64,000 bases of DNA from Candidatus Doudnabacteria bacterium (GTDB lineage: Bacteria; Patescibacteriota; Doudnabacteria; UBA920), in NCBI GenBank assembly GCA_963768175.1, contig CAVYGQ010000001.1, positions 318,305 through 382,304 on the forward strand, given 5' to 3'. The notes beneath the pieces were generated by a model. It had not been told where the DNA came from. It did not search any database and saw only the letters and a list, made by a program, of their open reading frames with translations. The position numbers were made by a program, and so were the translations under genes. Positions 4,784 to 63,308 of this stretch are shown in pieces; positions within the stretch are counted from its first letter, which is position 1, and each line of letters opens with the position of its first letter.

Positions 4784-5446
4784 ATGCCAATCAAAAATAT
4801 ACATAAAATAGAACAGCCACGCGAAAAGTTAGAAAAGTACGGACCAGGCAGACTTTCCGATGCCGAACTTTTTGCGATTTTACTGCGTACTGGGCCAAAG
4901 GGGACCGGGGTTTTAGAATTATCTAAAAAGATTTTAAAACAATTTCCGGACAGCAAACTGGCTAATGCGAGTTTCAATGAACTAAAAGATATCCACGGGA
5001 TTGGCCCTGCCAAGGCCTGCGAAATTGTAGCGTGCTTCGAATTAGGTCGCCGAATATTGAAAGACAAAAAATCCATCTTAATTTTATCGCCGCGAGAAGT
5101 ATGGGAGCAGTGTAAAGATATCCGCGACAGCAAAAAAGAACATTTTGTTGTATTTTTTCTGGACACGCAAAATCAGGAAATTAAGCGCGAACTAATATCC
5201 ATCGGCACCCTAAACGCCAGCCTCATTCACCCGCGAGAAGTATTTGAGCCCGCGATTAAACATCTGGCATCCCATATAATTCTCGCCCACAACCACCCCA
5301 GCGGCAGCTTGGAGCCGTCCCAAGAAGACCTCACCGTCACCAAACGCCTAACCGACTCCGGCCGGCTCTTGGGCATAGAAGTACTTGACCACGTAATTGT
5401 CACCGGCAGGGGACACGCTAGTTTAAAAGAAAAGAACCTTCTCTAA
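4784..5446 (+). CDS. radC: RadC-family JAB-domain protein
   Basis: N-terminal LSDAELFAILLRTG and HhH GIGPAKA, with the JAB/MPN metalloprotease motif HNHPSG...S..D at the C-terminus. This is the canonical RadC/UPF0758 architecture. Confidence 0.75.
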   Translation: MPIKNIHKIEQPREKLEKYGPGRLSDAELFAILLRTGPKGTGVLELSKKILKQFPDSKLANASFNELKDIHGIGPAKACEIVACFELGRRILKDKKSILILSPREVWEQCKDIRDSKKEHFVVFFLDTQNQEIKRELISIGTLNASLIHPREVFEPAIKHLASHIILAHNHPSGSLEPSQEDLTVTKRLTDSGRLLGIEVLDHVIVTGRGHASLKEKNLL

Positions 5447-5538
5447 TGTCATTCCCGCAGAAGCGGGAATCTTGTCAAAGTTATCCACTTGACAGATGTG
5501 TACATGTACGTTATTATGTACATAAGGAGAATAAACAT

Positions 5539-5910
5539 ATGAACGGTAAAACAACTTTATCTATTACGGACGCGAGAAAGAAGATTTTTGATATTGCGGA
5601 AGATGTCCAGCGGCCGGGTAAATATTATACTTTAACCGAACAGGGGAAGCCCAAAGCCGTTGTTATATCCGCGGATGAGTTTGAAAGTTGGCAGGAAACT
5701 CTGGAAATAATGGAACAATTTCCGGATTTGCCCAAAGATATTGCCCAAGTTGACAAAGACATAAAATCCGGGGCATATAAGAACTATATAACTTTGGAAG
5801 AGCTTTTAGCCAAAGAGGGTTATGTATTAAGCGAAAAAGCAAAGAATAAATATGCCGTATCAAATAAGGCTGGAAAAAAAGGCTCAAAAAGAGCTGGAAA
5901 AACTTCCTGA
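5539..5910 (+). CDS. Type II antitoxin, Phd/YefM family
   Basis: ORF trimmed to the internal Met preceded by an aaggaga RBS. N-terminal ...ITDARKKIFDIAEDV...KPKAVVISADEFESWQETLEI resembles Phd/YefM. It sits immediately upstream of, and overlapping, a RelE/ParE-like gene. Confidence 0.55.
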   Translation: MNGKTTLSITDARKKIFDIAEDVQRPGKYYTLTEQGKPKAVVISADEFESWQETLEIMEQFPDLPKDIAQVDKDIKSGAYKNYITLEELLAKEGYVLSEKAKNKYAVSNKAGKKGSKRAGKTS

Positions 5911-9995: not shown

Positions 9996-9996
9996 A

Positions 9997-10239: not shown

Positions 10240-10254
10240 TTTGGGAATGTTTAT

Positions 10255-11439
10255 TTGATACAAATTATGAATTTTGATTGTAATAATTTCAGAATGATTA
10301 CTTATAACGGATTAAGCCTTTATTTCGATAAAGGTTGTCGTTTTCATGAATACTTTCACCATAGGTTAAAAACAAAAAAATTTCGTTATTACAGAAATGT
10401 TCTCCAATTTTTAGCGGAAAATGTAGAGGCAAGATTATATTTTACTTTGAATGAGGAAGTCAAAAATTTTCAAAAGGTTGAAGGAGGCTTTTTGGTAAAT
10501 ATGGGTTCATATCAAGAGTTTTGTCGTACTATCGGAAGCAAAACAGGTGGAAGGTTAAAAGCTTTTCTCGGACAAAATATTAATTTAAAAGACCTTGATA
10601 TCACTGATATTGAACGAGATAATTTTATTATTGTTCATGCAACTGAGAAAAATATTTTAGAAGCAATAAAAAATTTAAGTGCCGAGGTTCAAATAAATAT
10701 TTTAAACTTTCTAAAGAACTTACACCCTACGGACCAGGGTGGAATAATACCGCCCCAAGAAATAAGTGGCGCCAAACTGATCGAAGCATTGGGAAAGTTT
10801 TTAACAGATAAAAACGTACAGCAGGCTTTTTTTTCAAATTTAACGAAAGTCCAAATTGATATTCTAAAATCACATATTTTATTTTTGAAAAACAATCTAG
10901 ATAAAAATGAGACCTTCATTCAAGACTGGATAGACGAAGATGGTGGTAAATTTAGGAAGCAGCGATGTCTTATATTTGGCCTAGAATATGTGGACCCAAA
11001 GAGGGAAGGGCAAGTGGCGGGAAAATTTTTTGATATTCTAGCCGAACATGATTTAGAACATCATGTTATTTTTGAATTAAAGTCGCCTAAGGACGATACA
11101 TTTAAAGTGGTTGAAAATCAAACACAAGCTGGCGGTATTTCTACTGAATATTCCTTATCTCCACAACTAAGTAGGGCGATACCTGAGGTGCTGGGTTATA
11201 GAAAAATGTATGAAAACGCGCAAGGTGAAGAATTACAAAAATTTGGCGTAAACGTCAAGAAAAAGATTTCAAAATGTGTTATAGTGGTTGGCACACAAAA
11301 AGATGATCTGGTTTGGAAAGAAAATTTTGAGCGCCTTCAGAATAGTTTAAATGGAATCGAATTATTAACATATAACCATCTTATTGACAGACTGCAAAAT
11401 ACCGTAAAAAATTTGGAAGAAAACACTTCAACCCAATGA
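10255..11439 (+). CDS. Shedu-like (DUF4263-like) PD-(D/E)xK nuclease-fold protein embedded between hsdM and hsdS
   Basis: The C-terminal half reads ETFIQDWID...LIFGLEYVD...FDILAEHD...HVIFELKSP...QLSRAIPEVLGY. It has a D...ExK nuclease motif plus a downstream Gln, in an arrangement resembling the DUF4263 domain of Shedu SduA. Called from memory of the family, not from a database search. Confidence 0.4.
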   Translation: MIQIMNFDCNNFRMITYNGLSLYFDKGCRFHEYFHHRLKTKKFRYYRNVLQFLAENVEARLYFTLNEEVKNFQKVEGGFLVNMGSYQEFCRTIGSKTGGRLKAFLGQNINLKDLDITDIERDNFIIVHATEKNILEAIKNLSAEVQINILNFLKNLHPTDQGGIIPPQEISGAKLIEALGKFLTDKNVQQAFFSNLTKVQIDILKSHILFLKNNLDKNETFIQDWIDEDGGKFRKQRCLIFGLEYVDPKREGQVAGKFFDILAEHDLEHHVIFELKSPKDDTFKVVENQTQAGGISTEYSLSPQLSRAIPEVLGYRKMYENAQGEELQKFGVNVKKKISKCVIVVGTQKDDLVWKENFERLQNSLNGIELLTYNHLIDRLQNTVKNLEENTSTQ

Positions 11440-13816: not shown

Positions 13817-14101
13817 ATGAAAAAATTAAAGACGGCAAAACAAATGGAGCGGCACCTTAAAGGGATGGCCAACCATTACCGCATCCAAATACTTCTTACT
13901 ATTGCGGGCAGCAAGGGAATAACCCTGGAAAACATTGTCAAAACCCTCCGCGCCAACGAAAAAACCATCGGCGAGCACACCCGGAGGCTGTACGTGGCCG
14001 GGTTGATAGACAAAAAATATCGCGGCAAATTTGTGGAGCATGCCCTTTCGCCATACGGAAAAATATTTGTCGATTTCCTAAAATCATTTCAATCCACATA
14101 A
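13817..14101 (+). CDS. Winged-helix (ArsR/SmtB-like) transcriptional regulator
   Basis: ORF trimmed to MKKLKTAK at 13817. HYRIQILLTIAGSKGITLENIV...LYVAGLIDKKYRGKF resembles ArsR-family HTH. Confidence 0.45.
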   Translation: MKKLKTAKQMERHLKGMANHYRIQILLTIAGSKGITLENIVKTLRANEKTIGEHTRRLYVAGLIDKKYRGKFVEHALSPYGKIFVDFLKSFQST

Positions 14102-14159
14102 CATCATCCTTACATACTTGAGAATATAAGGATGAGTATAACCTGATAAAATAAAGCAT

Positions 14160-16844: not shown

Positions 16845-17240
16845 ATGAATACCTACAACTGCTATCAACAGCTCAAAAAACCCTCCTGGGCTCCGCCGAG
16901 CAGGCTATTTGGCCCGGTATGGTCAGGTTTGTACATTCTAATCGCTGTTTCTTTTGGCAAGGTATTTTTGCTGGCTTGGCAACATAATCTTGCCTTTATT
17001 GTGGCTTTGCCGTTTATATTAAATTTAATTTTTAATTTTGCTTTTACGCCCCTGCAGTTTGGGCTCAAAAATAATTTTTTGGCGGCCATAGACGTTCTGC
17101 TGGTTTTGGCCACCCTGATTTGGGCGATGGTTGCAATTTTCCCATACTTGGGCTGGACGGCCTACATCCAAATCCCATATCTGCTCTGGGTTTGCTTTGC
17201 CACAGTGCTACAACTCACCATTACTTATTTAAACTCCTAA
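16845..17240 (+). CDS. TspO/MBR-family (tryptophan-rich sensory protein-like) membrane protein
   Basis: LKKPSWAPPSRLFGPVWSGLYILIAV matches the conserved TspO N-terminal signature. Somewhat short at 131 aa. Confidence 0.55.
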   Translation: MNTYNCYQQLKKPSWAPPSRLFGPVWSGLYILIAVSFGKVFLLAWQHNLAFIVALPFILNLIFNFAFTPLQFGLKNNFLAAIDVLLVLATLIWAMVAIFPYLGWTAYIQIPYLLWVCFATVLQLTITYLNS

Positions 17241-17419
17241 CCCTTAAACAAACTGATAACCATTCGCGCGAATCCTCCTTCGCTAAAGCTTCGGAGGACG
17301 ATGTAAACGAACAGTCTAAAACCGGGCAAAAAGCCGGTTTTTTGATTGCTTTTAGTTTTAACGATTATTGACAAAAGCGCGAAAAAGCGTATGGTTAATG
17401 ATACGAAAAAGGAGGATAT

Positions 17420-17995
17420 ATGCTGCAGATCGACTGGGGCCTGGACTTTATTGCCTTGGTTGTCTTGTGGTATGTTCTGAACGAAATTGCCGGTCGCTAC
17501 CGGCCTAAACGCCAAAACCGGGACATGGAAGAACTGGACAAGCTCTCCCAGATTCTGACTCGGGAGTTTAATAACAACGCCTTCCTGGAGGAGAAAGGCA
17601 ATGAGTTATATCAGTCGCTTCTGGATGGTATAACACTGAACCCCGATTTTAATTTGCTGCCCGACGGTAGCAAATATTTAGGGTGCGAACAGCTTTTGGC
17701 CAGGTACTGCAGGAACGGGGTGATAAGCGTCCTGGCGGTGGAAGCCGTAGACCAAAGCCAGACGGCTGGACGCGTCCCCATACTGACCGTATGGCTGGAC
17801 GTGAAGGGAGCCAGAATAGTCCGGTACGAACTTTGGCGGAAACAGTACGCCGACTTTGTTCCGGAAGCGATTACAAGCCTGGCTTGGCTGGTGCAGTTCT
17901 TTGTAGCGACGTGGCGGTTTCCCGCGCTACTGGCCAACAAGGAAATAATATCATACCACCCCGGCGTAGTAGCTAAATTAAGGCAACAGCCTTAA
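17420..17995 (+). CDS. Hypothetical protein
   Basis: 191-aa ORF with one N-terminal hydrophobic segment. Confidence 0.45.
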   Translation: MLQIDWGLDFIALVVLWYVLNEIAGRYRPKRQNRDMEELDKLSQILTREFNNNAFLEEKGNELYQSLLDGITLNPDFNLLPDGSKYLGCEQLLARYCRNGVISVLAVEAVDQSQTAGRVPILTVWLDVKGARIVRYELWRKQYADFVPEAITSLAWLVQFFVATWRFPALLANKEIISYHPGVVAKLRQQP

Positions 17996-18295
17996 ATCCC
18001 CCCTGGACCGTATTTTGGTTCCAGGGGATTCGTTTATAATAAAATAAATTGTTATTGAACTAAAACCGGATTTGGTGATATAGTTATAAAGACCTCTTGC
18101 GAGATAACATTTTGGCTAATTTCCCCAAACTTCGGGTTTGAGCCGGCACTGGCGAAGCCAGATGCCATCAAAGCTCTGCAAAACCCTCAAAACTCCTCCG
18201 CTTAGCTACTTAGCTAAACATCGTCGTTTGTTCGGGTTTTTCGCTCGAAGTTTGTAAAAATTATTTCAAAAGCTTATCTCGCAAGACGTCTTAGT

Positions 18296-24413: not shown

Positions 24414-24556
24414 CATTTTTAAAAATCCCCGTCACGGTGAATCGGGGCGGGGATTTATGCTATAATAGAAGTATTAAACTTATATTAGCTCCTCGGCTCG
24501 GAAACTTAAAAGTCAAACTTTTAAGTTTCTCTCGCTCTACGTCGCTAATAAAAAGC

Positions 24557-25222
24557 ATGGATACACACCCAACGGCAGGAATCGTCCAAAGATACCTCTC
24601 CCTAAAATCGCATAAAGTTTTTTACCTCCAGCTAGTTACGGGAATTTTATTTTTGTCCCTTAGCCTGTTTTTCAATTACTACGCGCAGGCCTACACCGCC
24701 ACCCACTCCACCAACAACTCCGTCAGCGATATTATTTTAGACCACTTGCCGGCCAAAAACGTGGACGACGTGTTTTTGGAAGGCTTTATGATTTTTATCG
24801 CTTTTGTCACGGTGCTGGCCATCCACAAACCCAGCCGTATTCCGTTTATCCTCAAAGCCTCGGCTTTGTTTATTTTTACCCGCGCAATTTTTATTACCTT
24901 AACGCATTTGGCGCCGCCCGCCCACATGACCACGGTCAACGCGGTAAGTTTTTGGGAAAGATTGCTTTCCGGTTCCGGGGATGACCTATTTTTTTCCGGC
25001 CATACGGGGTTTCCGTATTTAATGGCGTTGATTTTTTGGCAAAACAAATACCTGCGCTGGCTGTTTTTGGCAACTGCCGTCTTTTTTGGCGGAGCGGTGC
25101 TTTTGGGGCACCTGCACTATTCTATAGACGTTTTTTCGGCCTTCTTTATAACCTACGGCATTTTCAACATTGCCAAGCGCATATTTAAAAAAGATTACGA
25201 ATTTTTTCCTTATCATAAATGA
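24557..25222 (+). CDS. PAP2-like membrane phosphatase (tentative)
   Basis: Trimmed to MDTHP at 24557. FFSGHTG and GHLHYSIDVF resemble the PSGH and SR..H...D motifs of PAP2 phosphatases. Multiple TM helices. Confidence 0.4.
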   Translation: MDTHPTAGIVQRYLSLKSHKVFYLQLVTGILFLSLSLFFNYYAQAYTATHSTNNSVSDIILDHLPAKNVDDVFLEGFMIFIAFVTVLAIHKPSRIPFILKASALFIFTRAIFITLTHLAPPAHMTTVNAVSFWERLLSGSGDDLFFSGHTGFPYLMALIFWQNKYLRWLFLATAVFFGGAVLLGHLHYSIDVFSAFFITYGIFNIAKRIFKKDYEFFPYHK

Positions 25223-28143: not shown

Positions 28144-28197
28144 CTTTTTTGAAATCTAATCACTTAGCACTAAGCACTAAGCACTAACAACTTCCCC

Positions 28198-29478
28198 TTA
28201 CGTTCCTTCCTGCCAACTCGCCAAATACTTTTTTTGCGCAGGGGTTAAAACGTCAATTTTAACCCCAATTGATTTCAGCTTTAATTTGGAAACACGCTCA
28301 TCAATTTCGGCAGGTACATCATAAACTTGATTTTGAAGCTCCTGATAATGTTTAACCAGCCAGTCACAAGTTAGCGCTTGGTCGGCAAACGACATATCCA
28401 TAACGGCGGAAGGATGCCCTTCGGCCGCGGCCAGGTTCATGAGGCGGCCTTCAGCGATGAGGAAAAGTTTGCGCCCGTCTTTCATAGTATACTCCATCAA
28501 GCTATCCCTGACCTGCTTCATGCTTTTTGCTTCATGCTTCATGTCCTTCACATTTATTTCCACGTTAAAATGCCCGCTGTTGCCCAAAATCGCCCCATCT
28601 TTCATCAATTTAAAATGTTGCTTGGTAAGAACGTCTTTATCTCCGGTAGCGGTCAAAAATATATCGCCAATTTTTGCCGCCTTGGGCATTGGCATAACAT
28701 CAAAACCGTCCATGGCGGCCTGAAGCGCCGGCAGGGGATCTACCTCTGTGACAATCACGCGCGCGCCCAAACCCTTAGCCCTAAGTGCCATGCCCTTGCC
28801 GCAGTAACCGTAGCCGGCCACAACCAAAATTTTTCCGGCCAAAAGGATGTTGGTGGCGCGGAGCAAACCGTCCATAGTGCTCTGGCCGGTGCCATAATAA
28901 TTATCAAACATGTGCTTGGTCGGGGTGTCGTTTATGGCCACAACCGGATATTTTAACGCGCCGTCTTTGGCCATGGCCTTTAGCCGGATTATGCCGGTAG
29001 TGGTTTCTTCCTGGCCGGCCCAGACGGTTTTTAAAAGCTCGCTTCGTCCGGAATGGATAAGCGATATCAAGTCCGCGCCGTCGTCTATGGTAATCTGCGG
29101 TTTAAAATCCAAAACTTTATTTAGCGCCCAATAATAATCTTTCTTGGAAATATGCTTCCAGGCAAAAACGTTAATGTTCAGCTCCGCCAAAGCCGCGGCT
29201 ACGTCATCCTGCGTAGACAGGGGATTAGAGGCGCACAAGGCCATTTTTGCCCCGCCCGCCGCCAAAGCCTTCATTAGCACCGCGGTCTCTTTGGTCACGT
29301 GGAGACACGCCGCTATGGTTATGCCTTCAAAAGGCCGCCGCTTTTTTCCGCCAGAGGCGGATCCGCCTTTGGCGGAGAAATCTTCCGCGATAATCCGCAA
29401 AACCGGCATTTCCCGCTCGGCCAAAGCAATATTAATATGCCCTTGCTTGGCCAGTTTAATGTCTTTTACTTTGTGCAT
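28198..29478 (-). CDS. ahcY: Adenosylhomocysteinase
   Basis: NAD-binding GYGxxGKG (VVAGYGYCGKGMA), conserved LHVTKETAVL and HFNVEI blocks, and length 426 aa. Contains an in-frame GGSASGG palindromic insertion. Confidence 0.85.
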   Translation of the reverse strand: MHKVKDIKLAKQGHINIALAEREMPVLRIIAEDFSAKGGSASGGKKRRPFEGITIAACLHVTKETAVLMKALAAGGAKMALCASNPLSTQDDVAAALAELNINVFAWKHISKKDYYWALNKVLDFKPQITIDDGADLISLIHSGRSELLKTVWAGQEETTTGIIRLKAMAKDGALKYPVVAINDTPTKHMFDNYYGTGQSTMDGLLRATNILLAGKILVVAGYGYCGKGMALRAKGLGARVIVTEVDPLPALQAAMDGFDVMPMPKAAKIGDIFLTATGDKDVLTKQHFKLMKDGAILGNSGHFNVEINVKDMKHEAKSMKQVRDSLMEYTMKDGRKLFLIAEGRLMNLAAAEGHPSAVMDMSFADQALTCDWLVKHYQELQNQVYDVPAEIDERVSKLKLKSIGVKIDVLTPAQKKYLASWQEGT

Positions 29479-36965: not shown

Positions 36966-37125
36966 ACCAAAAAGGTTGATTTATTTAAATAGAGTTTTGT
37001 CCCGATGTCCGCTTAGCGGAATCGGGATCCCGACTGAAACGTCGGGAGAGACCACTGTGATACCGTTTCACCAAGCCCCCAGGGGGAAGGAATATTGAAT
37101 TTAGAATATTGAATATTGACGAACG

Positions 37126-38679: not shown

Positions 38680-38855
38680 AGGGTTAAATAAACAGGCAAA
38701 AATCCGATGAACACAGAAAGTTTTTTACTATAATACAATTATGGACGTTAAAGATAAAGTTATAATTATTTCCGAAAAGCCCGAAGCCATGATGTAATCC
38801 TATAATCATCCTTACATTCTTAAGTATGTAAGGATGATGTCTAAAATTTAAAAAT

Positions 38856-40385
38856 ATGCCAAATCCTGTTTGCCTCATAATTCTTGACGGCTGGGGCTAT
38901 CGCGAAAATCCGGAAAACAACGCCATCGCGCAGGCCAAGACGGCCTTTTTTGACGCTCTGCTAAAAAAATATCCGCACACGCAGCTTTTCGCCAGCGAAG
39001 AACACGTGGGCCTACCCAAAGGACAAATCGGCAACAGCGAAATCGGCCATATGACCATGGGCACCGGCCAGGTTTTGGACGTGGATTTGGTAAAAATCAA
39101 CAAAGCGGCGCAAAAAGGCGAATTCCACACTAATCCCGCCTTTTTGCAACTTTTTGACCACGTCAAGCAATACAATTCCACTCTACATGTCGTAGGTATG
39201 GTAAGCCCTGGCGGAGTCCACAGCCATCAGGACCATTTGCACGAATTCCTAAAAGCCGCCAAAACTGCCGGCGTAGAAAAAGTCGCCATTCACGCCATTA
39301 CCGACGGGCGTGATTTGCCTCCGCAAAGCGGCGCCCAATACCTAAAAGACCTGGAAAAAGTTTTGGCCGATTTAAAAATCGGTTTTATCGCCACCGTACA
39401 CGGGCGTTTTTACGCGATGGACCGAGACAAAAACTGGGAACGCTTGGCAAAAACCGAAGCTGCTATTTTTGAAAGCAAAGGCAAGGTCGTGCGGGCAAAA
39501 AAACCGTCCGAAGTCCTAAATGAGCTTTACAAACAAGGGGTTGTGGACGAGCATGTTGAACCGATAGTATTTTTGGACGAAACCGGCAAAGGCTGGCCCA
39601 TTTCGCAAAACGACGGCGTGTTCTTTTTTAACTACCGGCCCGACCGCGCCAGGCAGCTGGCCAAAAAAATCCTGGAAAAAAAGCAGACCCACAACCTGTG
39701 TTTTGTCACGCTTACCGAGTACGACAAAACTTTTGAAACGCTGGTTGCTTTTCCGCAAAGCAAAATCGATACATCTTTGGCCGCGGAAATATCCAAAGCC
39801 GGCTTAAAACAGTCACACATCGCGGAAACGGAAAAATACGCGCACGTAACTTACTTTTTTAACGGCGGACACGAACAGCCTCATAAAAACGAACACTTCT
39901 TTTTAATAGACAGCCGGCGAGACGTACCGACCCACGATTTGGCGCCGGAAATGCGCGCGCACGAAATTGCGGACAAAACCGTGGAAAGAATAAAGGCCGG
40001 CGACAATTTTTTGGTTATTAACTTTGCCAACGCCGACATGGTCGGCCACACGGCTAACCAAAGCGCGATTATAACGGCCGTGGAAACCGTAGACAGGGAA
40101 CTAAAAAGGGTGGTTGAAGAAGTTACAAAACACGATGGAATAGCTATTGTTACCGCGGACCACGGCAACGCCGAAGTAAATATAGACGAAAAAACCGGCG
40201 AAAAGCATACCGCCCACACCACCAACTTAGTCCCATTTATCTTGGTCAGTAATGTCATTCCCGCGAAAGCGGGAATCTTGCGCCCATTGGGCACCCTCGC
40301 CGACATCGCTCCCACCATTTTGGAGCTGATGAATTTAAAAAAACCCGCCTCAATGACGGGAAAAAGTTTAATTGTGTTAAATTAA
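38856..40385 (+). CDS. gpmI: 2,3-bisphosphoglycerate-independent phosphoglycerate mutase
   Basis: Conserved CLIILDGWG, NSEIGHMTMGTG, DGRD, ADHGNAE and C-terminal ADIAPTIL blocks. Contains a 30-bp palindromic element in-frame near the C-terminus. Confidence 0.9.
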   Translation: MPNPVCLIILDGWGYRENPENNAIAQAKTAFFDALLKKYPHTQLFASEEHVGLPKGQIGNSEIGHMTMGTGQVLDVDLVKINKAAQKGEFHTNPAFLQLFDHVKQYNSTLHVVGMVSPGGVHSHQDHLHEFLKAAKTAGVEKVAIHAITDGRDLPPQSGAQYLKDLEKVLADLKIGFIATVHGRFYAMDRDKNWERLAKTEAAIFESKGKVVRAKKPSEVLNELYKQGVVDEHVEPIVFLDETGKGWPISQNDGVFFFNYRPDRARQLAKKILEKKQTHNLCFVTLTEYDKTFETLVAFPQSKIDTSLAAEISKAGLKQSHIAETEKYAHVTYFFNGGHEQPHKNEHFFLIDSRRDVPTHDLAPEMRAHEIADKTVERIKAGDNFLVINFANADMVGHTANQSAIITAVETVDRELKRVVEEVTKHDGIAIVTADHGNAEVNIDEKTGEKHTAHTTNLVPFILVSNVIPAKAGILRPLGTLADIAPTILELMNLKKPASMTGKSLIVLN

Positions 40386-44528: not shown

Positions 44529-45701
44529 ATGGAACCGCTAGCCAATAAAATTCGCCCGACGTCGCTTAAAGGATTTGTCGGCCAACAGCATCTGGTCGGG
44601 CCGGATAAACCTTTAAAGATTGCCGTTGAACAAAAACATTTGTTCAGCTTTATTTTTTGGGGCCCGCCGGGGGTAGGGAAAACCACCCTGGCGCGGATTT
44701 ATGCCAAAGCGGTTAACGCGGAATATTTTGAACTGTCCGCTGTTTCCGCGGGTAAAGATGACATCCGGAAAATTGTTGACCGCCCGCCGATGATGGGACA
44801 GCCGAAAATATTGTTCCTTGATGAAATCCACCGCTTTAACAAAGCCCAGCAGGATTATCTATTGCCGTTTGTGGAAACCGGCAAATTATATTTAATCGGC
44901 GCCACCACGGAAAATCCTTCGTTTGAAGTGATCCCGCCTTTGCTTTCCCGTTGCAGGGTGTTTGTGCTAAACGAGTTGGCCGATGACGAAATCGAAAAAA
45001 TCATCGTTCAGGCCTGCAGAAGTGTCCCCTCTGCTGCAGAGGGGACACTTCTGCCAAAGAACAAAATAGATAAAAAATCCAAAGACTGGCTGGTACAAAT
45101 GGCTAACGGCGACGCTCGCCAGGCCATCAGCATGATAGAAAACACGGTAAATCTATACGGAAAAATTACCGTTGAAACCTTAAAAGACACCCTGCAATCC
45201 AAATTTTTGCGCTACGATAAAGCCGGTGAAGAACACTACAATATCATCAGTGCGTTTATAAAAAGTATGCGCGCCAGCCAGCCGGACGCGGCGCTCTATT
45301 ATATGTGCCGGATGATTGCTGCCGGCGAAGATCCGCTGTTCATCGCGCGGCGCATGGTGATTTTCGCCAGCGAGGACATCGGCTTAGCCCAGCCCACGGC
45401 CTTGGTGGTCGCCAACGCCGTATTCCGCGCCTGCGAAACCATCGGCTACCCCGAATGCGCCGAGAACCTTGCCCACGGGACCGTTTATCTGGCGCTGGCC
45501 AAAAAGGACCGCAGCGCCTACAACGCCTACCTGGCCGCGATGAAGGATGCCAAGGAATACGGCAACCTGCCCGTGCCGCTTAAAATCCGCAACGCACCCA
45601 CCAAGCTTATGAAAGAATTAAAATATGGGGAAGGTTATGAAAGTTATGATAAAGATGATTATCTGCCGGAAAAATTAAAAAGGAAAAAATATCTAATTTA
45701 G
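44529..45701 (+). CDS. rarA: Replication-associated recombination protein A (AAA+ ATPase)
   Basis: Walker [12 protein letters not shown], Walker [13 protein letters not shown], and conserved [10 protein letters not shown] and [11 protein letters not shown] blocks. Carries a 37-bp perfect palindrome in-frame. Confidence 0.85.
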
Positions 45702-48156: not shown

Positions 48157-48333
48157 AAAACTTAAGTGGTCGGTCTTAAGAAAAATTTGTCAGACAAAAA
48201 AACTTGATACCTAAATCAAAATAAAGGTTACTCGGAGCAGAGCTGTGAGGTATTGAACCTGTATTAGCTCCTCGGCTCGGTCTCCCTTCGGGAGACTCTC
48301 GCTCTACGTCGCTAATAAATAGAAAGGAACAAA

Positions 48334-49017
48334 ATGGATTACACAACATATCAGGCTGTAGTGATTCAGGCTTTGGGGGATTTATATTCCAAAACCCTAA
48401 CCTACCTGCCTAATCTTGTTGCCGCAATTATAGTTGTAATTATTGGCTGGCTGTTGGCCATATTCTTAAGCAAGGTAATTTACAAAATTTTAGAGATCAT
48501 TAAAATCGATCAGTTAGCCAACCAGCTTGGCTTAAAAAATCTCTCCGAAAAAGCCGGCAGAAAATTAAGCCTGGTCGCTTTGGGCGCTTGGCTGGTAAAA
48601 TGGTTCTTCTTCTTGGGCAGCTTTATTGCCGCCGCCGACATCTTGGGCCTTCAGGAAGTTTCAACCTTCCTCTACCAGGATGTGTTAAATTACGCCGGGC
48701 ATGTGGTCGTGGCAATGGCCATTCTGCTTTTGGGTATTCTGGCTGCAAACTTCTTTGCGAATATTGTTGTAAGCACGGTTAAAGCCAGCGGTCTGCATAA
48801 GGGCGAATCTTTGGGCACCCTTACCAAGTGGGCGATCTTAGTTTTTACCGCAATAGCCGCTCTGTCCCAGCTCCAAATTGCCACCGCGTTTTTGCAGGAC
48901 TTGTTCAGGGCTGTAGTTGCCATGCTAGCCATTGCTGGTGGTTTGGCCTTTGGCTTGGGCGGCAGGGATCATGCAAAAAAAGTCTTGGATAATATAGAAA
49001 ACGGCTTAAAGTCTTAG
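48334..49017 (+). CDS. Membrane protein with duplicated TM-helix repeat (mechanosensitive-channel-associated type)
   Basis: Two similar halves each with a TM helix. Preceded by the conserved leader motif. Confidence 0.45.
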   Translation: MDYTTYQAVVIQALGDLYSKTLTYLPNLVAAIIVVIIGWLLAIFLSKVIYKILEIIKIDQLANQLGLKNLSEKAGRKLSLVALGAWLVKWFFFLGSFIAAADILGLQEVSTFLYQDVLNYAGHVVVAMAILLLGILAANFFANIVVSTVKASGLHKGESLGTLTKWAILVFTAIAALSQLQIATAFLQDLFRAVVAMLAIAGGLAFGLGGRDHAKKVLDNIENGLKS

Positions 49018-49954: not shown

Positions 49955-50935
49955 TTATCCCAGACGACTTCCAATAAATTGCGGATAGCCGTTTAAAAAG
50001 TCGCCGATGGCAACTTCCGATTTCCCCTCAAGCTGAAGTTGTTTAATTTGCAAAAAAGTATTACTGCCGCAAACCGCCACTCCGTTTTCAAGCACTGTGC
50101 CCGGCATTCGTGTCATTCGTGTGCTATTCGTGTCATTCGTGTCGCTTAAAATACAATCGGTAATCTTTAAAATTTTACCGTTCCAAGTTGTCCAAATTCC
50201 AGGCCAAATATAAAAAGCGCGAAATTGATTATAAATTTCCGGAGATGTGCGCTGCCAATCAACTTTGCCGTCGGCTTTACTGATTATTTTGGTATAAGAA
50301 GCTTTGACTTCATCCTGGGGCAGGGGAGTAATTTTGCCGCTGGCATAATCCTCAACAACCCGATTAATCAACCGGGCGGACAGTCTGGCTAGCTTGTCGG
50401 ACAAAGTGAAATAGTTATCATCGGGATCAATTCCAACTATTTCCTGTGCCAGCAGCGGGCCGCCATCAATTTTTTGGTCCAACAAAAATATAGACGTGCC
50501 GGTTTGCTGGTCGCCATTAAGCAAAGCAAACTGGATGGGCGAAGGGCCACGATACTTTGGCAAAATTGAAAAGTGGACGTTAATCGTTTTGTATCGAGGC
50601 AGGCCGATAATTTCCGCCGGCAAAATTTTGCCGTAAGCCACCACTACAAAAATATCCGCGTTTAAATTTTGCAGCTGCCGTAAAAATTCCGGATTCTCCT
50701 TCAAATTTTCCGGCTTTAAAACAAACAGCTTTAAATCTTTTGCCAAAGCCGAAACCGGGCTTTCCTGCAAGTCCTGCGACCTTCCCGCTTCAGCGTCCGG
50801 CTTGGTAACCACAGCTAAAATTTTGTGCTGTTTATTTAAAGTTTCCAATACCGGCAAAGCTTCGTTAGCCGTGCCAAAAAATACAATTTTTCCGCCAAAG
50901 GCGGACCCGCCTCCGGCGGGCATTTTCTCATTCAT
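49955..50935 (-). CDS. fmt: Methionyl-tRNA formyltransferase
   Basis: N-terminal KIVFFGT, formyltransferase core (HFSILPKYRGPSPIQ), and C-terminal domain. Carries a GGSAFGG palindromic element at the 5' end and an in-frame tandem repeat. Confidence 0.85.
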   Translation of the reverse strand: MNEKMPAGGGSAFGGKIVFFGTANEALPVLETLNKQHKILAVVTKPDAEAGRSQDLQESPVSALAKDLKLFVLKPENLKENPEFLRQLQNLNADIFVVVAYGKILPAEIIGLPRYKTINVHFSILPKYRGPSPIQFALLNGDQQTGTSIFLLDQKIDGGPLLAQEIVGIDPDDNYFTLSDKLARLSARLINRVVEDYASGKITPLPQDEVKASYTKIISKADGKVDWQRTSPEIYNQFRAFYIWPGIWTTWNGKILKITDCILSDTNDTNSTRMTRMPGTVLENGVAVCGSNTFLQIKQLQLEGKSEVAIGDFLNGYPQFIGSRLG

Positions 50936-51498: not shown

Positions 51499-51566
51499 AG
51501 ATAGTGGATAGTGGTCAGTGGATAGTGGTCAGTCCTGTCCACTGATCACTGTACACTGTCCACTTT

Positions 51567-54762: not shown

Positions 54763-56328
54763 ATGACGAATAAAAATCCACAAATCCGCACCCGTTTCGC
54801 TCCCAGCCCCACCGGGTTTGTCCACATTGGCAATCTGCGCACCGCGCTGTTTAGTTTTTTGTTCGCGCGCCATAACGGCGGCGTCCACGTTTTACGGATT
54901 GAAGACACCGACCAAAACAGAAAAATGGAAGGAGCTTTGATAAACTTATTGGGCGTCATGAAAGTTATGGGTGTGGAATTTGACGAAGGCTATTGCTTAA
55001 AAGACAACCGCGAAATAGGGGAGAGGGGAGATTATGGCCCTTACCTGCAATCAAAAAGACTTGATAAATACCAGCGGCATGCCCAAGAGCTCATTGAAAA
55101 GGGCAAAGCTTATTACTGTTTTTGCTCCGAACAACGGCTGGAAGATTTGCGCAAAGAGCAAACCGCGCTAAAAAAACCGCCGATGTACGACCGGCACTGC
55201 CGCAATTTAACGGACGGCGAAGTTAAAAAATTGCGCAATGAATTTGCGGCGGCGGGCAAAAACCCGGTAATCCGTTTTGCCATTCCTCTGGAAGGGCAAA
55301 CCGTAATCCACGATTTGGTTTACGGCGACATAACTTATGAGCATAAAATTTTGGACGACCAGGTAATCATAAAGTCCGACGGCTTTCCGACTTACCATTT
55401 GGCCGTAGTCATAGACGACCATTACATGAAAATTTCCCACGTTATCCGCGGCGAAGAATGGATTCCTTCCACGCCAAAACATCTGTTGATTTACCAAGCG
55501 CTGGGCTGGGAGCCAACGCAGTTCGCCCATTTGCCACTGATAGTCAACCCGGACAAAACCAAACTTAGCAAACGTCAAGGCGATGTTAGTGTGGAAGACT
55601 TTATCCAAAAAGGATATTTGAAAGAAGCGCTAATTAACTTTGTGGCGTTTTTAGGTTGGAACCCAAAAACCGAGCAGGAATTATTTTCCATGCAAGACCT
55701 GATTAAGCAGTTTGATTTAGCAAAAATCAACAAATCCGGCGCGGTTTTTGACATCAACAAACTGGACTGGCTAAACAGCCACTATATCCGCCAAATGCCA
55801 ATTAAGGAATTAACCGAACGTCTGATTCCTTATTGGCAGGAGGCTAAATTGGCCATACACAAATTTTTGCAAAAAAAAGATTACTTGGCGGCAATTGCGA
55901 ATTTGGAAAGAGACCGCCTTAAAAAACTTTCCGAAATAGGGGAGAGGACAAAGTATTTTTTTGCGACACCCGAATATGACCAAAGCCTGCTCATTTGGAA
56001 AAAGTCCGATAAGAAAAAAATCAAACAGGCGTTGTTGGATTTAGTAAACTTGTTCGAAAATATGGACTTATCCGCCTTCGCTAAAGCTACGGCGGATGAC
56101 CCTCTACATTTTGTCTCGGCTACCGCCGAGACTATAGAAAAGTGGATCAAAAAAATGATTTCGGATAAAGGCTACGACAACGGCTCCGCGCTTTGGCCGC
56201 TTCGGGTGGCTTTAACCGGATTGTCCGCCAGCCCCGGACCTTTTGAAGTTTGCGCCACCATAGCCTTGGGCTTGGGCAAAGAAGAAATTTTAAAAAGGCT
56301 GAATGCCGCAATAGCAAAATTAGGCTGA
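54763..56328 (+). CDS. gltX: Glutamate--tRNA ligase
   Basis: HIGH motif (FVHIGNLRTALF), KMSKS motif (KLSKRQG), and class I catalytic core. Confidence 0.9.
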   Translation: MTNKNPQIRTRFAPSPTGFVHIGNLRTALFSFLFARHNGGVHVLRIEDTDQNRKMEGALINLLGVMKVMGVEFDEGYCLKDNREIGERGDYGPYLQSKRLDKYQRHAQELIEKGKAYYCFCSEQRLEDLRKEQTALKKPPMYDRHCRNLTDGEVKKLRNEFAAAGKNPVIRFAIPLEGQTVIHDLVYGDITYEHKILDDQVIIKSDGFPTYHLAVVIDDHYMKISHVIRGEEWIPSTPKHLLIYQALGWEPTQFAHLPLIVNPDKTKLSKRQGDVSVEDFIQKGYLKEALINFVAFLGWNPKTEQELFSMQDLIKQFDLAKINKSGAVFDINKLDWLNSHYIRQMPIKELTERLIPYWQEAKLAIHKFLQKKDYLAAIANLERDRLKKLSEIGERTKYFFATPEYDQSLLIWKKSDKKKIKQALLDLVNLFENMDLSAFAKATADDPLHFVSATAETIEKWIKKMISDKGYDNGSALWPLRVALTGLSASPGPFEVCATIALGLGKEEILKRLNAAIAKLG

Positions 56329-61816: not shown

Positions 61817-61934
61817 TTGCTTAATTATAGCACAGATTTAATGACAAGAGCGGCATGATTTAAATGATTGACAAGATTTGGTGCAATTAATTCATGTCAT
61901 TCTTGTCAATCGTGTCATTCTTGTCAATTATTCT

Positions 61935-63308
61935 ATGAAATACGCTTTTATTTTAGGGAGGGTTTATACTTTATCGGTGGCCGAACTTTTGGCTGTTTTG
62001 GAAAAAACAGACGCCTCTTTAGGCTTAACGGGTGAACCTGTGCAAATTTTGGAAGCCTCGGAAGAAGTTTTAATCGTAGAAACCGGAAAACCCCTTAACG
62101 TGGAAAGGCTGCAAAAAAAGCTCGGCGGGGTAATTAAGATTCTTGAGGTAGTTGATGTGATAAAAAAACGCGAACGGGATTCCATTAATTTTGCCCTAAA
62201 ACATTATTTTAAGCCCGGCATCCTTAAAAAACAGTTTTTTAAGGACTACAAAGGCAAAGTGCAGTTCGGCCTGAGCATTTATATTTTAGATATGGATCTG
62301 CTTAAACGCCCCGGGCCGAATCCGAGGGACAAAAACCAAGGAGTTTTTTCCGCCGGAGGCGGATCCGCCTTCGGCGGAAATTCTGTTTTTAGCGAGCCCA
62401 AAAGAGTAGGCATGATGATAAAAAACGGGCTTACCGAAAGCGGCGCCAGCGTCAGGCTGGTCTTGCCCGAATACAATTCCCTATCGCTGGCTTCGGTAGT
62501 GGTAACAAAAAATTTGCTTCTGCAAAAAGGCGCGGAGATTTGCATCTTGGCCGCCAAAGACAATATTTTTACGGCTAAAACTTTAACAGTGCAGGACTTT
62601 GAAGATTACGGCCGCAGGGATTATCAACGGCCTGCCAGGGACGAGAAACAAGGCATGATCCCCCCAAAAGTGGCGCAAATTATGCTTAACCTCTCGGGCT
62701 GCAAATCCGGGGACAGCATTTTAGACCCGTTCTGCGGCGTCGGCACAATTATCCAGGAAGGCTTGTTGCTTGGCTTCCGCATGATTGGCAGCGATATAAA
62801 TAAGCAGGCCATAAAAGGCAGCGAACAAAATTTGGAATGGTTCAGAAACCGCTACAAAATCGCTCCGGGAAAATACGGAGTGGAGGTTTCCAACGCCGCC
62901 AAGGTCGCCGATTTGATAGATAAATCCAAAAGCCAAATTTCCGCCATTGTCACCGAAGGCACCCTGGGGCCAATATACGGCCAATACCCCAAAGCCGACG
63001 AGATTGCCAAAAATTTTAAGGACCTGGAAAAACTTTATAAAGCCAGTTTTAAAGAATTTGCCAAATTTCTCCCCAAACAAGCCAAAATTGTCATGTGCCT
63101 GCCGGCTTACCGGAAAAGCCGCGACCAATACGAAATGTTCCCCAGCCTTGACTTCGCCCAAGCTTTAGGATATAATTTAGTGGATATTATTTCCCCATCT
63201 GTTGTAAAAAAACTTAAATTCCTCAAACTGACGACCAGAAACACGGCTATTTATGATCGCAAAGATCAGATTGTTGCGAGAGAGATAGTAATCTTTGAAA
63301 AAATATAA
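61935..63308 (+). CDS. THUMP-domain class I SAM-dependent RNA methyltransferase (Trm11/RlmL-like)
   Basis: Trimmed to MKYAF at 61935. Motif I ILDPFCGVGTIIQEG and acidic motif II MIGSDIN. Carries a GGSAFGG palindromic element in-frame. Confidence 0.5.
   Translation: MKYAFILGRVYTLSVAELLAVLEKTDASLGLTGEPVQILEASEEVLIVETGKPLNVERLQKKLGGVIKILEVVDVIKKRERDSINFALKHYFKPGILKKQFFKDYKGKVQFGLSIYILDMDLLKRPGPNPRDKNQGVFSAGGGSAFGGNSVFSEPKRVGMMIKNGLTESGASVRLVLPEYNSLSLASVVVTKNLLLQKGAEICILAAKDNIFTAKTLTVQDFEDYGRRDYQRPARDEKQGMIPPKVAQIMLNLSGCKSGDSILDPFCGVGTIIQEGLLLGFRMIGSDINKQAIKGSEQNLEWFRNRYKIAPGKYGVEVSNAAKVADLIDKSKSQISAIVTEGTLGPIYGQYPKADEIAKNFKDLEKLYKASFKEFAKFLPKQAKIVMCLPAYRKSRDQYEMFPSLDFAQALGYNLVDIISPSVVKKLKFLKLTTRNTAIYDRKDQIVAREIVIFEKI

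What the first reader, a model, noticed from the sequence alone, without database searches (positions are those of the whole stretch)
40251..40280. Second palindromic element family: one copy in-frame in gpmI, one in the radC-yefM intergenic region
aatgtcattcccgcgaaagcgggaatcttg (hairpin attcccgc-gaaa-gcgggaat) lies inside the iPGM C-terminus and encodes NVIPAKAGIL. That spot is about 5 residues longer than the usual ...PFILxGKGVKLREGGILADIAPT... region. A 28/30 identical copy aatgtcattcccgcagaagcgggaatcttg sits at 5445..5474, immediately after radC, where it also supplies an ATG for ORF 5446. The same short mobile palindrome in both coding and non-coding contexts supports a dispersed, insertion-competent element.
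Basis: partly seen in the sequence, partly recalled or inferred. Interest (0 to 1): 0.6.

Follow-up and report, generated by a model that had tools for sequence, protein, structure and literature searches.

The report
Ssn-type hairpin repeat translated inside GpmI
The 30-base palindrome is a copy of a hairpin repeat found across many bacterial phyla, known in Neisseria as the cutting site of a small single-strand DNA nuclease; here one copy is translated as nine amino acids in the single loop of a glycolytic enzyme where related bacteria carry other short repeats.

Summary
Two 28/30-identical copies of AATGTCATTCCCGC-N4-GCGGGAATCTTG lie at 40251-40280 and 5445-5474. The first is in frame in gpmI and encodes NVIPAKAGIL. 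The second starts in the radC stop codon.

This is not a private family of this genome. It matches the NTS/SRM hairpin repeat of Chenal et al. 2025, CGTCATTCCCGCGMAVGCGGGAATCYRG, which contains Neisseria dRS3 and is the ssDNA target of single-domain GIY-YIG Ssn nucleases. The exact 27-mer occurs in many phyla, including several Patescibacteria (CPR, Candidate Phyla Radiation). In one Patescibacteria genome a GIY-YIG gene is flanked by inverted copies.

The host is a Candidatus Doudnabacteria relative. In 120 GpmI orthologues, every internal insertion of 10 residues or more lies in this one loop. Most Doudnabacteria-type orthologues carry a short loop there that is built from heptanucleotide tandem repeats wherever its DNA was read. 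About 20 others carry one of at least six different hairpin-repeat peptides. The copy is shared with an 84%-identical orthologue and is the longest identical DNA run between the two genes.

No Ssn gene, transposase or further copy was found in 148 kb of Doudnabacteria DNA, so current mobility in this genome is not shown. My verdict is a new member of a known repeat family in an unusual, recurrent, in-frame location.

The parts
40253..40280 (+). NTS/SRM-type hairpin repeat, copy 1: TGTCATTCCCGCGAAAGCGGGAATCTTG, in frame in gpmI
   Evidence: It matches the published NTS consensus at 26 of 28 positions and matches the published degenerate SRM pattern; it is the only SRM match in the window, against 0.06 expected. 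The identical sequence is present in the orthologue L004.
40257..40276 (.). Perfect 8-bp stem ATTCCCGC/GCGGGAAT with loop GAAA; also fits the dRS3 pattern ATTCCC-N8-GGGAAT
   Evidence: ssDNA dG -9 kcal/mol, z-score -4.3.
40251..40280 (+). Codons N466-L475 of GpmI (NVIPAKAGIL), the hypervariable surface loop
   Evidence: In the AF2 model (mean pLDDT 89.2), residues 466-474 are coil between strand 459-465 and strand 478-480/helix 481-491. HMMER places a 5-residue insertion here against 1EJJ. In 120 orthologues the segment I462-L481 ranges from 11 to 72 residues, and it is the only site with internal insertions of 10 aa or more.
38856..40385 (+). gpmI, 2,3-bisphosphoglycerate-independent phosphoglycerate mutase, intact
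   Evidence: It is 509 aa and carries Pfam iPGM_N and Metalloenzyme domains. It matches PDB 1EJJ at E=5e-131, and columns that are invariant across 64 aligned orthologues are listed.
5447..5474 (+). NTS-like hairpin repeat, copy 2: TGTCATTCCCGCAGAAGCGGGAATCTTG, intergenic, directly after the radC stop
   Evidence: It matches the NTS consensus at 24 of 28 positions. It keeps the 5' GTC and the C after the stem, but its atypical AGAA loop fails the SRM pattern.
5451..5470 (.). 8-bp stem ATTCCCGC/GCGGGAAT with loop AGAA
   Evidence: dG -9 kcal/mol, z-score -5.5.
4784..5446 (+). radC; its TAA stop (5444-5446) overlaps the first bases of the 30-mer
   Evidence: Pfam RadC, E=8.8e-42, profile covered to position 120 of 121, so the C-terminus is native.
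5489..5517 (+). Sigma-70-like promoter TTGACA-17-TATTAT for the antitoxin gene, downstream of copy 2
   Evidence: 11 of 12 positions. No terminator-like site was found in 5200-5700.
5539..5910 (+). PhD/YefM antitoxin. It is followed by a ParE-family toxin (5852-6106) and a type I R-M/Shedu-like island up to about 12599
   Evidence: Pfam results.

Best explanation
The 27-28-nt sequence is a copy of the NTS/SRM hairpin repeat family. When the strand reading 5'-(T)GTC-ATTCCCGC-GAAA-GCGGGAAT-C-3' is single-stranded, as in replication, repair or DNA uptake, it folds into an 8-bp stem with a 4-nt loop. Single-domain GIY-YIG 'Ssn' nucleases bind this sequence-plus-structure and nick it just 5' of the stem. 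Both positions reported as critical are present in both copies: the C directly after the stem for binding, and the three bases before the stem for cutting. Such repeats travel with an ssn gene that is typically flanked by inverted copies, an arrangement that resembles an insertion sequence.

In this Doudnabacteria genome the two copies look like solo copies. One lies right after the radC stop codon, at the edge of a defence island. The other occupies the one loop of GpmI that tolerates almost any sequence. The unit is 27 nt (9 codons) and is open in five of its six reading frames, so it is read through as VIPAKAGIL without breaking the enzyme. The copy was already present in the common ancestor of this genome and the organism carrying L004.

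Shown here: family identity by sequence, hairpin potential, in-frame position, presence/absence among orthologues, the single-loop hot spot, and the Ssn-repeat association in other CPR genomes.

Inferred: that an Ssn nuclease acts on these two copies, how the copies got in, and that the nine residues are neutral for the enzyme.
For: Family identity:
- The consensus and SRM pattern come from PMC11893778. The gpmI copy matches the NTS at 26 of 28 positions and matches the SRM pattern.
- In 172 matches from viral contigs the repeat shows an oriented consensus, YGTC-ATTCCCGC-GNAR-GCGGGAAT-CCAG. Both window copies have the same GTC flank and orientation; only the gpmI copy's GAAA loop fits GNAR.

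Distribution:
Hits include Kingella, Eikenella, Gammaproteobacteria, Dehalococcoidia, Ignavibacteria, Rickettsiales and Coxiellaceae.
- CPR hits are Magasanikbacteria, Falkowbacteria, Saccharibacteria, Berkelbacteria and a 'Patescibacteria group' genome.

Ssn association:
- A GIY-YIG ORF lies next to the repeat in L168, L171, L184, L201, L237, L257, L260 and L266. Pfam confirmed the GIY-YIG domain for the two ORFs submitted, L168 and L184.
- In Patescibacteria L277 the GIY-YIG gene (10001-10312) is flanked by TGTCATTCCCGCGAAAGCGGGAATCCAG at 9934-9961 (+) and an inverted copy at 10287-10314. The first 25 nt of the upstream copy equal the window's gpmI copy.
- Close homologues of this nuclease are annotated in Moranbacteria, Berkelbacteria, Saccharimonadales, Gracilibacteria and Peregrinibacteria.

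In-frame copies elsewhere:
- In ORFs with Pfam-confirmed domains: a Mur ligase and LigA in Magasanikbacteria and PolA in L277, read as PVIPAKAGIR.
- In long ORFs that I identified by eye from the translations: ValRS in Saccharibacteria, MutL in Dehalococcoidia and a RecD-like ORF in Moraxellaceae.

Acquisition and age:
- P0001 and P0002 are sisters in a tree built with the loop masked, and both carry the copy. Their 7-member clade shows 5 different loop states.
- The two genes are 82.5% identical in DNA and 68% at third positions. The element is their longest identical run, at 30 nt.

Permissive loop.
Against: - No Ssn-like gene was found in the 64-kb window or in 84 kb of related Doudnabacteria contigs. 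None of the best 120 Ssn-like proteins is named Doudnabacteria or sits on a 949,077-bp contig.
- Copy number is low, 3 copies in 148 kb, far from the hundreds seen where Ssn is active.
- Both copies deviate from the strict NTS, with T for C at position 1 and T for R at position 27. The radC copy has an atypical AGAA loop; about 95% of family members begin the loop with G.
- Ssn cleavage and any role in spreading the repeats are unproven for CPR. Even the original paper treats mobility as a hypothesis.
- The perfect conservation between orthologues is only modestly improbable: 0.69^10 is about 0.02, and runs of 26-27 nt occur elsewhere in the gene.
Confidence: 0.72

Rival explanations
1. The copies are integration or recombination sites of the dRS3 type. 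In this reading the hairpin is a target at which a phage or IS110/Piv-type recombinase, or homologous recombination with incoming DNA, joins foreign DNA, so copies mark junctions of acquired segments. This is not exclusive of the main explanation.
For: Both copies fit ATTCCC-N8-GGGAAT, and the literature describes dRS3 as the target of a phage recombinase (PMC11893778). The motif is frequent in viral or proviral contigs, with at least 120 stretches. The radC copy sits exactly between a conserved gene and a lower-GC defence island of TA, type I R-M and a Shedu-like ORF; GC is 0.33-0.40 across 6-14 kb.
Against: Pfam scans of about 70 window ORFs found no integrase, recombinase or transposase. 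The gpmI copy has no foreign DNA next to it. Orthologous radC loci could not be fetched to test for a synteny break.
Confidence: 0.12
2. It is a REP-type element, a repetitive extragenic palindrome mobilised by a RAYT (IS200/IS605-like Y1 transposase).
For: It is a short GC-rich imperfect palindrome that is dispersed and oriented. REP/RAYT and NTS/Ssn are explicitly compared in PMC11893778.
Against: The sequence fits the NTS consensus. No RAYT or Y1 transposase appears among the window ORFs. Wherever a gene is adjacent to the repeat in other genomes it is GIY-YIG, not Y1. The copies are not in inverted pairs or BIME-like clusters here.
Confidence: 0.04
3. It is a MITE or a remnant of a longer transposon end, inserted by a transposase with a target-site duplication.
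For: Orthologues L006 and L276 carry elements of about 115-130 nt at the same gpmI site. Their inverted ends, GTCGTTCCGAGC (L006) or GTCATTCCGAGC (L276) at the left and GGTCGGGATGAC at the right, resemble the left end of the 27-mer.
Against: At 27-28 nt it is far below MITE size. The flanks show no direct repeat: AGTAAT|...|CGCCCA in gpmI and TCTAAT|...|TCAAAG after radC. No transposase is in the window.
Confidence: 0.05
4. It is a functional RNA or regulatory hairpin, such as a terminator, attenuator or translational pause site, or a peptide segment selected at the protein level.
For: The hairpin is stable. The copy is perfectly conserved between two orthologues that are 82.5% identical in DNA.
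Against: There is no T-tract, and the terminator scan found nothing. Rfam gives only tRNAs in the window. The same DNA occurs in intergenic regions and in at least four different reading frames of unrelated genes in many phyla, which fits a DNA-level element rather than a peptide or an mRNA signal. The loop content is freely replaceable among orthologues.
Confidence: 0.05

Closest known systems
NTS / SRM repeats, targets of Ssn single-domain GIY-YIG ssDNA nucleases (Chenal et al., Nat Commun 2025, PMC11893778)
   Same: It shares the 28-nt architecture: 5' (C/T)GTC, an ATTCCCGC/GCGGGAAT stem, a 4-nt loop (GNAR type in the gpmI copy), and a C after the stem followed by YNG. The orientation-defining flanks are the same. 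The gpmI copy matches the published SRM search pattern. The same sequence flanks GIY-YIG genes in other genomes, including a Patescibacteria genome.
   Different: The radC copy has an AGAA loop. Copy number is low. No ssn gene was seen in the DNA available for this lineage. One copy is translated inside a housekeeping gene, a location the paper does not mention.
Neisseria dRS3 (ATTCCC-N8-GGGAAT) / NIME arrays
   Same: Both copies fit the dRS3 pattern exactly.
   Different: dRS3 is defined in Neisseria, where copies are intergenic, number in the hundreds, flank RS elements and serve as Nf-phage integration sites. Here there are single copies in a CPR genome, with no arrays and no phage.
Rickettsia palindromic elements (RPE)
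   Same: Both are palindromic repeats inserted in frame into unrelated housekeeping genes, translated, and located where the protein fold tolerates them (PMC10969869).
   Different: RPEs are about 100-150 bp, restricted to Rickettsia and unrelated in sequence. This unit is 27 nt and belongs to a cross-phylum family linked to a nuclease.
REP elements / RAYT
   Same: Both are short, oriented, hairpin-forming ssDNA-recognised repeats that may be maintained by a domesticated nuclease or transposase.
   Different: The associated protein class differs (GIY-YIG rather than Y1/HUH), the sequence differs, and there are no BIME-like clusters here.

Membership tests
NTS (strict, Neisseria-type) | 28-nt consensus CGTCATTCCCGCGMAVGCGGGAATCYRG, searched in the paper with at most 1 mismatch | tested here: not met
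   The gpmI copy has 2 mismatches, at positions 1 (T for C) and 27 (T for R). The radC copy has 4, at positions 1, 13, 14 and 27. The consensus is quoted; the sequences are.
SRM (Ssn-related motif) | Match to HGTCWY-N(0-2)-YYVSBRH-N(0-5)-WNVSBRG-N(0-2)-RNCYNB | tested here: met
   The gpmI copy at 40253-40280 matches and is the only match in the window, against 0.06 expected in order-1 Markov simulations. The radC copy fails at one loop position.
SRM (Ssn-related motif) | Hairpin-forming semi-palindrome with oriented non-palindromic flanks: GTC 5' of the stem and C 3' of the stem | tested here: met
   Both copies have the 8-bp stem, the 5' GTC and the 3' C. The orientation agrees with the consensus of 172 family members.
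SRM (Ssn-related motif) | Enriched, multi-copy repeat in the genome | tested here: inconclusive
   There are 2 copies in 64 kb against 0.04 expected. Only 3 copies occur in 148 kb of Doudnabacteria DNA. The rest of the 949-kb contig could not be read.
SRM (Ssn-related motif) | A cd10448-type single-domain GIY-YIG (ssn) gene in the same genome, often flanked by the repeat | not testable with these tools
   None is in the window or in related contigs (tblastn; Pfam on about 70 ORFs). The association is shown in other genomes, including CPR L277 and L279.
SRM (Ssn-related motif) | Bound and nicked as ssDNA by the cognate Ssn | not testable with these tools
   This needs a biochemical assay.
dRS3 | ATTCCC-N8-GGGAAT | tested here: met
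   Both copies match.
dRS3 | Neisseria intergenic arrays (NIME) and use as an Nf-phage integration site | tested here: not met
   These are single copies with no arrays, no phage genes and no recombinase in the window.
REP/RAYT | A Y1 (IS200/IS605-like) transposase gene flanked by the repeat, with BIME-like paired clusters | tested here: not met
   No such gene is among the window ORFs. The neighbours of the repeat in other genomes are GIY-YIG. There are no paired copies here.
MITE | Terminal inverted repeats plus a target-site duplication, usually 100-400 bp | tested here: not met
   The unit is 27-28 nt and has no flanking direct repeat.
RPE-like in-frame palindromic insertion (a behaviour, not a sequence family) | A palindromic repeat read through in frame at a structurally tolerant site of an intact housekeeping gene | tested here: met
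   The ORF is intact and columns invariant across 64 orthologues are retained. The AF2 model shows coil at residues 466-474. Orthologues vary freely at this site.

The most novel reading that the evidence does not exclude
In Doudnabacteria, and more widely in CPR, one loop of GpmI may act as a landing pad that several unrelated families of short GC-rich hairpin repeats hit repeatedly and independently. Those families are the Ssn-type NTS, the PLPLGEG type, the PPFQGG/GGGW type, the SFxKRG type, the double-hairpin PPEADPP type, and elements of about 120 nt. The pad itself would be a heptanucleotide tandem repeat whose unit differs between lineages. That would imply site-directed insertion or replacement, guided by structure or by the repeat, that rewrites protein loops in frame. 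It would be a mode of protein diversification beyond simple tolerance of random insertions.
Probability: 0.25. Interest if true: 0.75.

Novelty: new member of a known kind. Interest (0 to 1): 0.5.

Why it matters
Three points make this worth recording.

1. It extends the recently described Ssn/NTS hairpin-repeat system into CPR bacteria. In the copy of the Ssn paper held here, a term search found no mention of Patescibacteria or of 'candidate' phyla. Here the same repeat flanks a GIY-YIG gene in a Patescibacteria genome.

2. These repeats are translated inside intact housekeeping genes. Pfam confirmed domains in the GpmI, PolA, LigA and Mur ligase ORFs. I read the ValRS and MutL ORFs by eye from the translations. 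The closest precedent I know is the Rickettsia palindromic elements, and I found no paper describing it for this family.

3. The GpmI loop gives a natural, phylogenetically replicated test of whether short hairpin repeats land at random and are filtered by protein tolerance, or are targeted. Every insertion of 10 residues or more in 120 orthologues lies in one loop.

It also has a practical use. The peptides VIPAKAGI, HSRESGN, DSRFRGND and IPAFAGMT in predicted proteins flag this DNA repeat, not a protein motif.

Tried and rejected
- **Broad pattern scans.** They show breadth but give no copy count for the source genome. No Doudnabacteria row appeared among the 120.
- **Narrower metagenome scan.** The pattern with the RAT left flank gave 26 stretches of mixed GC content, none related to the window. 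The 'AAT' flank is therefore not part of the element; in gpmI it is the native Asn codon.
- **Source genome.** The look-up of encoding contigs did not return the 949-kb NCBI contig, only a 7.5-kb Logan contig that lies inside the window. A genome-wide count and a search for ssn were impossible.
- **P0079.** No DNA was available for this orthologue, which carries PPEADPP in the same loop.
- **GIY-YIG in the window.** A regular-expression search over all six-frame ORFs found nothing, and tblastn with four Ssn-like queries gave nothing below E=0.1.
- **Ssn-like homologue search.** It found many CPR homologues, but none named Doudnabacteria among the best 120.
- **Rfam.** The window contains only four tRNAs.
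- **Terminator hypothesis for the radC copy.** Rejected: there is no T-run and no scan hit.
- **Literature.** Searches for the repeat-encoded peptides, and for palindromic repeats in CPR or Patescibacteria, returned nothing relevant.
- **Other inserted elements.** I looked for second copies of the hairpins from L005, L006 and L007 on their own 10-17-kb contigs and found none.
Full report
**Observation**

ATTCCCGC-N4-GCGGGAAT occurs exactly twice in 64 kb, both times on the + strand, against 0.04 expected by chance. The copies differ only in the loop, GAAA versus AGAA.

The copy at 40251-40280 is codons N466-L475 of an intact 509-aa GpmI (ORF 38856..40385). The copy at 5445-5474 starts in the TAA stop of radC. 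As single-stranded DNA each folds into an 8-bp stem with a 4-nt loop, dG about -9 kcal/mol, z-score -4.3 to -5.5.

The gpmI copy is also present in an independent Logan assembly (L001) and in a JGI metagenome orthologue (L004). It is therefore not an assembly artefact.

**Host**

The GpmI protein sits on a 949,077-bp NCBI contig. Its nearest named homologues are Candidatus Doudnabacteria, which belong to the CPR/Patescibacteria.

**What the element is**

The motif contains the Neisseria dRS3 pattern ATTCCC-N8-GGGAAT. Chenal et al. 2025 (PMC11893778) showed that about half of dRS3 copies belong to a longer, oriented 28-nt repeat called the NTS, CGTCATTCCCGCGMAVGCGGGAATCYRG. The single-domain GIY-YIG nuclease SsnA binds this repeat and nicks it only as ssDNA. 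They also showed that NTS-like 'Ssn-related motifs' (SRM) flank ssn homologues in many phyla.

- The gpmI copy, TGTCATTCCCGCGAAAGCGGGAATCTTG, matches the NTS at 26 of 28 positions.
- It is the only match in the window to the published SRM search pattern, against 0.06 expected.
- The radC copy matches at 24 of 28 positions and fails the SRM pattern only because of its AGAA loop.
- Both copies keep the two features the paper reports as critical: the three bases 5' of the stem (GTC) and the C right after the stem.
- 172 matches from viral or proviral contigs give the oriented consensus YGTC-ATTCCCGC-GNAR-GCGGGAAT-CCAG. Both window copies share its GTC flank and orientation; only the gpmI loop GAAA fits GNAR.

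**Distribution and the Ssn link**

- Non-CPR hits include Kingella, Eikenella, many Gammaproteobacteria, Dehalococcoidia, Ignavibacteria, Rickettsiales, Coxiellaceae, Planctomycetes, Omnitrophota and Bacteroidota.
- CPR hits are Magasanikbacteria, Falkowbacteria, Saccharibacteria, Berkelbacteria and a 'Patescibacteria group' genome.

A GIY-YIG ORF of about 95 aa lies within a few hundred bases of the repeat in eight fetched loci: L168, L171, L184, L201, L237, L257, L260 and L266. Pfam confirmed the GIY-YIG domain for the two ORFs submitted, L168 and L184. Close homologues of this nuclease are annotated in several CPR lineages.

In a 761-kb Patescibacteria contig (L277) the GIY-YIG gene is flanked by inverted SRMs. 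The upstream copy, TGTCATTCCCGCGAAAGCGGGAATCCAG, is identical to the window's gpmI copy over its first 25 nt. The NTS-ssn-NTS arrangement therefore exists in CPR.

It is not shown for this genome. There is no Ssn-like gene in the window or in 84 kb of related contigs. The rest of the source contig could not be read.

**The gpmI site**

Against Bacillus stearothermophilus iPGM (1EJJ) there is a 5-residue insertion at this point. In an AlphaFold2 model (mean pLDDT 89.2), residues 466-474 are coil between strand 459-465 and strand 478-480/helix 481-491.

Across 120 orthologues the segment I462-L481 ranges from 11 to 72 residues:

- 43 sequences have the short form of 13 residues or fewer.
- About 56 have a loop of 14-39 residues, mostly 17-21. 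Thirteen show a clear LxxxxYxL pattern.
- 21 carry recognisable repeat peptides of seven kinds (six besides the NTS type): VIPAKAGI (P0001 and P0002 only); PLPLGEG type; PPFQGG/GGGW/RGGLRGG type; SFxKRGxGGV type; a long ...GRDD element; and PPEADPP.
- The PPEADPP peptide matches what one frame of a double-hairpin family elsewhere in this window would encode.

DNA of nine orthologues shows what these loops are made of:

- The LxxxxYxL loops are heptanucleotide tandem repeats: (CTACAAG)x4 in L274 and (TTACAAC)x4 in L275. The same-length loop of L002 (P0003, QQTADSRQL) is (CAGACAG)x3.
- The others are GC-rich hairpins: CCCCCTCTTT-TTTA-AAGAGGGGG in L005, and two hairpins in L007.
- L006 and L276 carry elements of about 115-130 nt with inverted ends: GTCGTTCCGAGC (L006) or GTCATTCCGAGC (L276) at the left and GGTCGGGATGAC at the right.

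All internal insertions of 10 residues or more in the 120 sequences lie in this one loop. Elsewhere there are only four small G/A-rich insertions of 6-9 aa.

In a neighbour-joining tree built with the loop masked, P0001 and P0002 are sisters and share the NTS copy. Their seven-member clade has five different loop states. The PLPLGEG type recurs in unrelated clades.

The 27 nt sit exactly where P0003 (81% identical) has 27 nt of heptamer repeat. The preceding AAT is the native Asn codon. The element therefore replaced, or filled, an already extended loop rather than lengthening it.

Between the window and L004 the gene is 82.5% identical in DNA and 68% at third positions. The element is the longest identical run, at 30 nt. 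This is suggestive of constraint on the DNA sequence, or of homogenisation, but it is not strong evidence: 0.69^10 is about 0.02.

**Why it is tolerated**

Read directly from the sequence, the 27-mer is open in five of six frames: VIPAKAGIL, SFPRKRES, CHSRESGNL, QDSRFRGND and KIPAFAGMT. Only RFPLSRE* ends in a stop. Its length is nine codons.

At least four of these frames are used inside long ORFs elsewhere:

- ORFs with Pfam-confirmed domains: a Mur ligase and LigA in Magasanikbacteria, and PolA in L277.
- ORFs that I identified by eye from the translations: ValRS in Saccharibacteria, MutL in Dehalococcoidia and a RecD-like ORF in Moraxellaceae.

Most copies in the metagenome sample are intergenic.

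**The radC copy**

It lies between the radC stop and a defence island. The island holds a PhD/YefM antitoxin (5539-5910), a ParE-family toxin, and type I R-M HsdR/HsdM/HsdS with a Shedu SduA_C-like ORF. GC is 0.33-0.40 across this region.

There is no terminator-like site. A TTGACA-17-TATTAT promoter-like site at 5489-5517 lies downstream of the hairpin, and the PhD/YefM domain begins right after ATG 5539. The ATG supplied by the element at 5446 is therefore probably not a start codon.

**Mechanism, and how sure I am**

- I am fairly confident (about 0.7) that these are solo copies of the Ssn-type hairpin repeat, and that the gpmI copy is an inherited, translated passenger in a uniquely permissive or targeted loop.
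- It is inferred, not shown, that a resident Ssn nuclease nicks them in ssDNA, for example during DNA uptake, replication or repair.
- How such 27-nt units enter new sites is unknown even for Neisseria.

Rival readings score low. They are an integration site of the dRS3 type, REP/RAYT, a MITE remnant, and an RNA signal or selected peptide. Pfam scans of about 70 window ORFs found no recombinase, transposase or GIY-YIG gene. There is no target-site duplication and no terminator. The same DNA appears in different frames and in intergenic DNA across phyla.

**Novelty**

The repeat family is known (2025), and in-frame palindromic insertions are known from Rickettsia RPEs (PMC10969869). In the literature I could search, the following are not described:

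- the presence of this family in CPR;
- its translation inside housekeeping genes;
- the single-loop, multi-family hot spot in GpmI that sits on a heptamer tandem repeat.

Noticed in passing
L274 2032-2115; L275 5145-5228; L002 5014-5041; window 28156-28187, 28514-28543, 37090-37119, 51500-51528: Heptanucleotide tandem repeats of 3-4 units make up the GpmI loop in orthologues: (CTACAAG)x4 encoding LQATSYKLQA, (TTACAAC)x4, and (CAGACAG)x3. The unit sequence differs between lineages. Four more heptamer arrays of about 4 units lie in this window. One of them, 28514-28543, is inside the S-adenosylhomocysteine hydrolase ORF. A change of one unit would shift the reading frame.
   Followed up: partly
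window 29342-29376, 50886-50920, 62344-62378: A double-hairpin family, TCCGCC-NNNN-GGCGGA(T/C)CCGCC-NNNN-GGCGG, lies in frame inside three ORFs with Pfam-confirmed domains: AdoHcy hydrolase (28198..29478, - strand), methionyl-tRNA formyltransferase-like (49955..50935, - strand) and a methyltransferase (61878..63308, + strand). GpmI orthologue P0079 carries the peptide PPEADPPLAD in the same hot-spot loop; this matches another frame of these copies (FFPPEADPPLAE).
   Followed up: partly
window 17272-17301, 53031-57, 56070-56099: Another palindrome family, ATCC(T/G)CCTTCGCTAAAGCT(T/A)CGG(A/C)GGA. The copy at 56070 is in frame (LSAFAKATADD) in the anticodon-binding domain of a GluRS/GlnRS-type synthetase (54763..56328).
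   Followed up: partly
window 45016-45054: A perfect 18-bp-stem palindrome, GCAGAAGTGTCCCCTCTG-CTG-CAGAGGGGACACTTCTGC, lies in frame ([14 protein letters not shown]) inside the MgsA/RarA-type AAA+ ATPase gene (44529..45701).
   Followed up: no
window 12617-12667, 13236-13286, 13768-13818, 14103-14153, 38805-38855: There are five copies of a palindrome of about 32 nt, ATCATCCTTA-N12-TAAGGATGAT. Four sit between small unknown ORFs downstream of the type I R-M genes. One ends immediately upstream of the gpmI start codon and could be an operator or another mobile hairpin.
   Followed up: no
window 5539-12599: A defence island lies directly after the radC copy. It holds a PhD/YefM antitoxin, a ParE-family toxin, and type I R-M HsdR, HsdM and HsdS, with a Shedu SduA_C-like ORF (10255..11439) between hsdM and hsdS. 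GC is lower here, 0.33-0.40.
   Followed up: partly
L006 6839-6952; L276 about 1579-1710: Structured elements of about 115-130 nt occupy the same GpmI loop. Their inverted ends, GTCGTTCCGAGC (L006) or GTCATTCCGAGC (L276) at the left and GGTCGGGATGAC at the right, resemble the 5' end of the NTS. They are translated as ...GSLHS...LGVGRDDKK. L276 comes from the same sample (ERR10755942) as the window's organism.
   Followed up: partly
protein P0009, loop region: The insert IPNPPPLARGGLRGG is flanked by a duplicated native segment, GSLANIAP ... GTLADIAPT. This may be a long target duplication made at insertion. No DNA was fetched for it.
   Followed up: no
window 24468-24561 and 48247-48328: Two blocks of 33-34 nt, spaced about 60 nt (first pair) and about 50 nt (second pair) apart, are 88-91% identical between the two places. 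The second place has a small GC hairpin between the blocks. One pair lies at the 5' end of the PAP2_C-family ORF (24437..25222); the other lies upstream of the mechanosensitive-channel-like ORF (48334..49017). Neither matches any Rfam family.
   Followed up: no
window, about 17000-18000: Cumulative GC skew rises to a maximum near 17-18 kb and then falls steadily. This could be a replication terminus or origin-type switch, or simply reflect gene orientation.
   Followed up: no
L277 5528-5555, 6141-6168, 6197-6224: In the Patescibacteria genome that carries the SRM-flanked GIY-YIG gene, three SRM copies of the ATCCCCGC stem variant lie in frame in polA. They are translated as PVIPAKAGIR, ADPRLRGDDK and SVIPAQAGIR.
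   Followed up: yes
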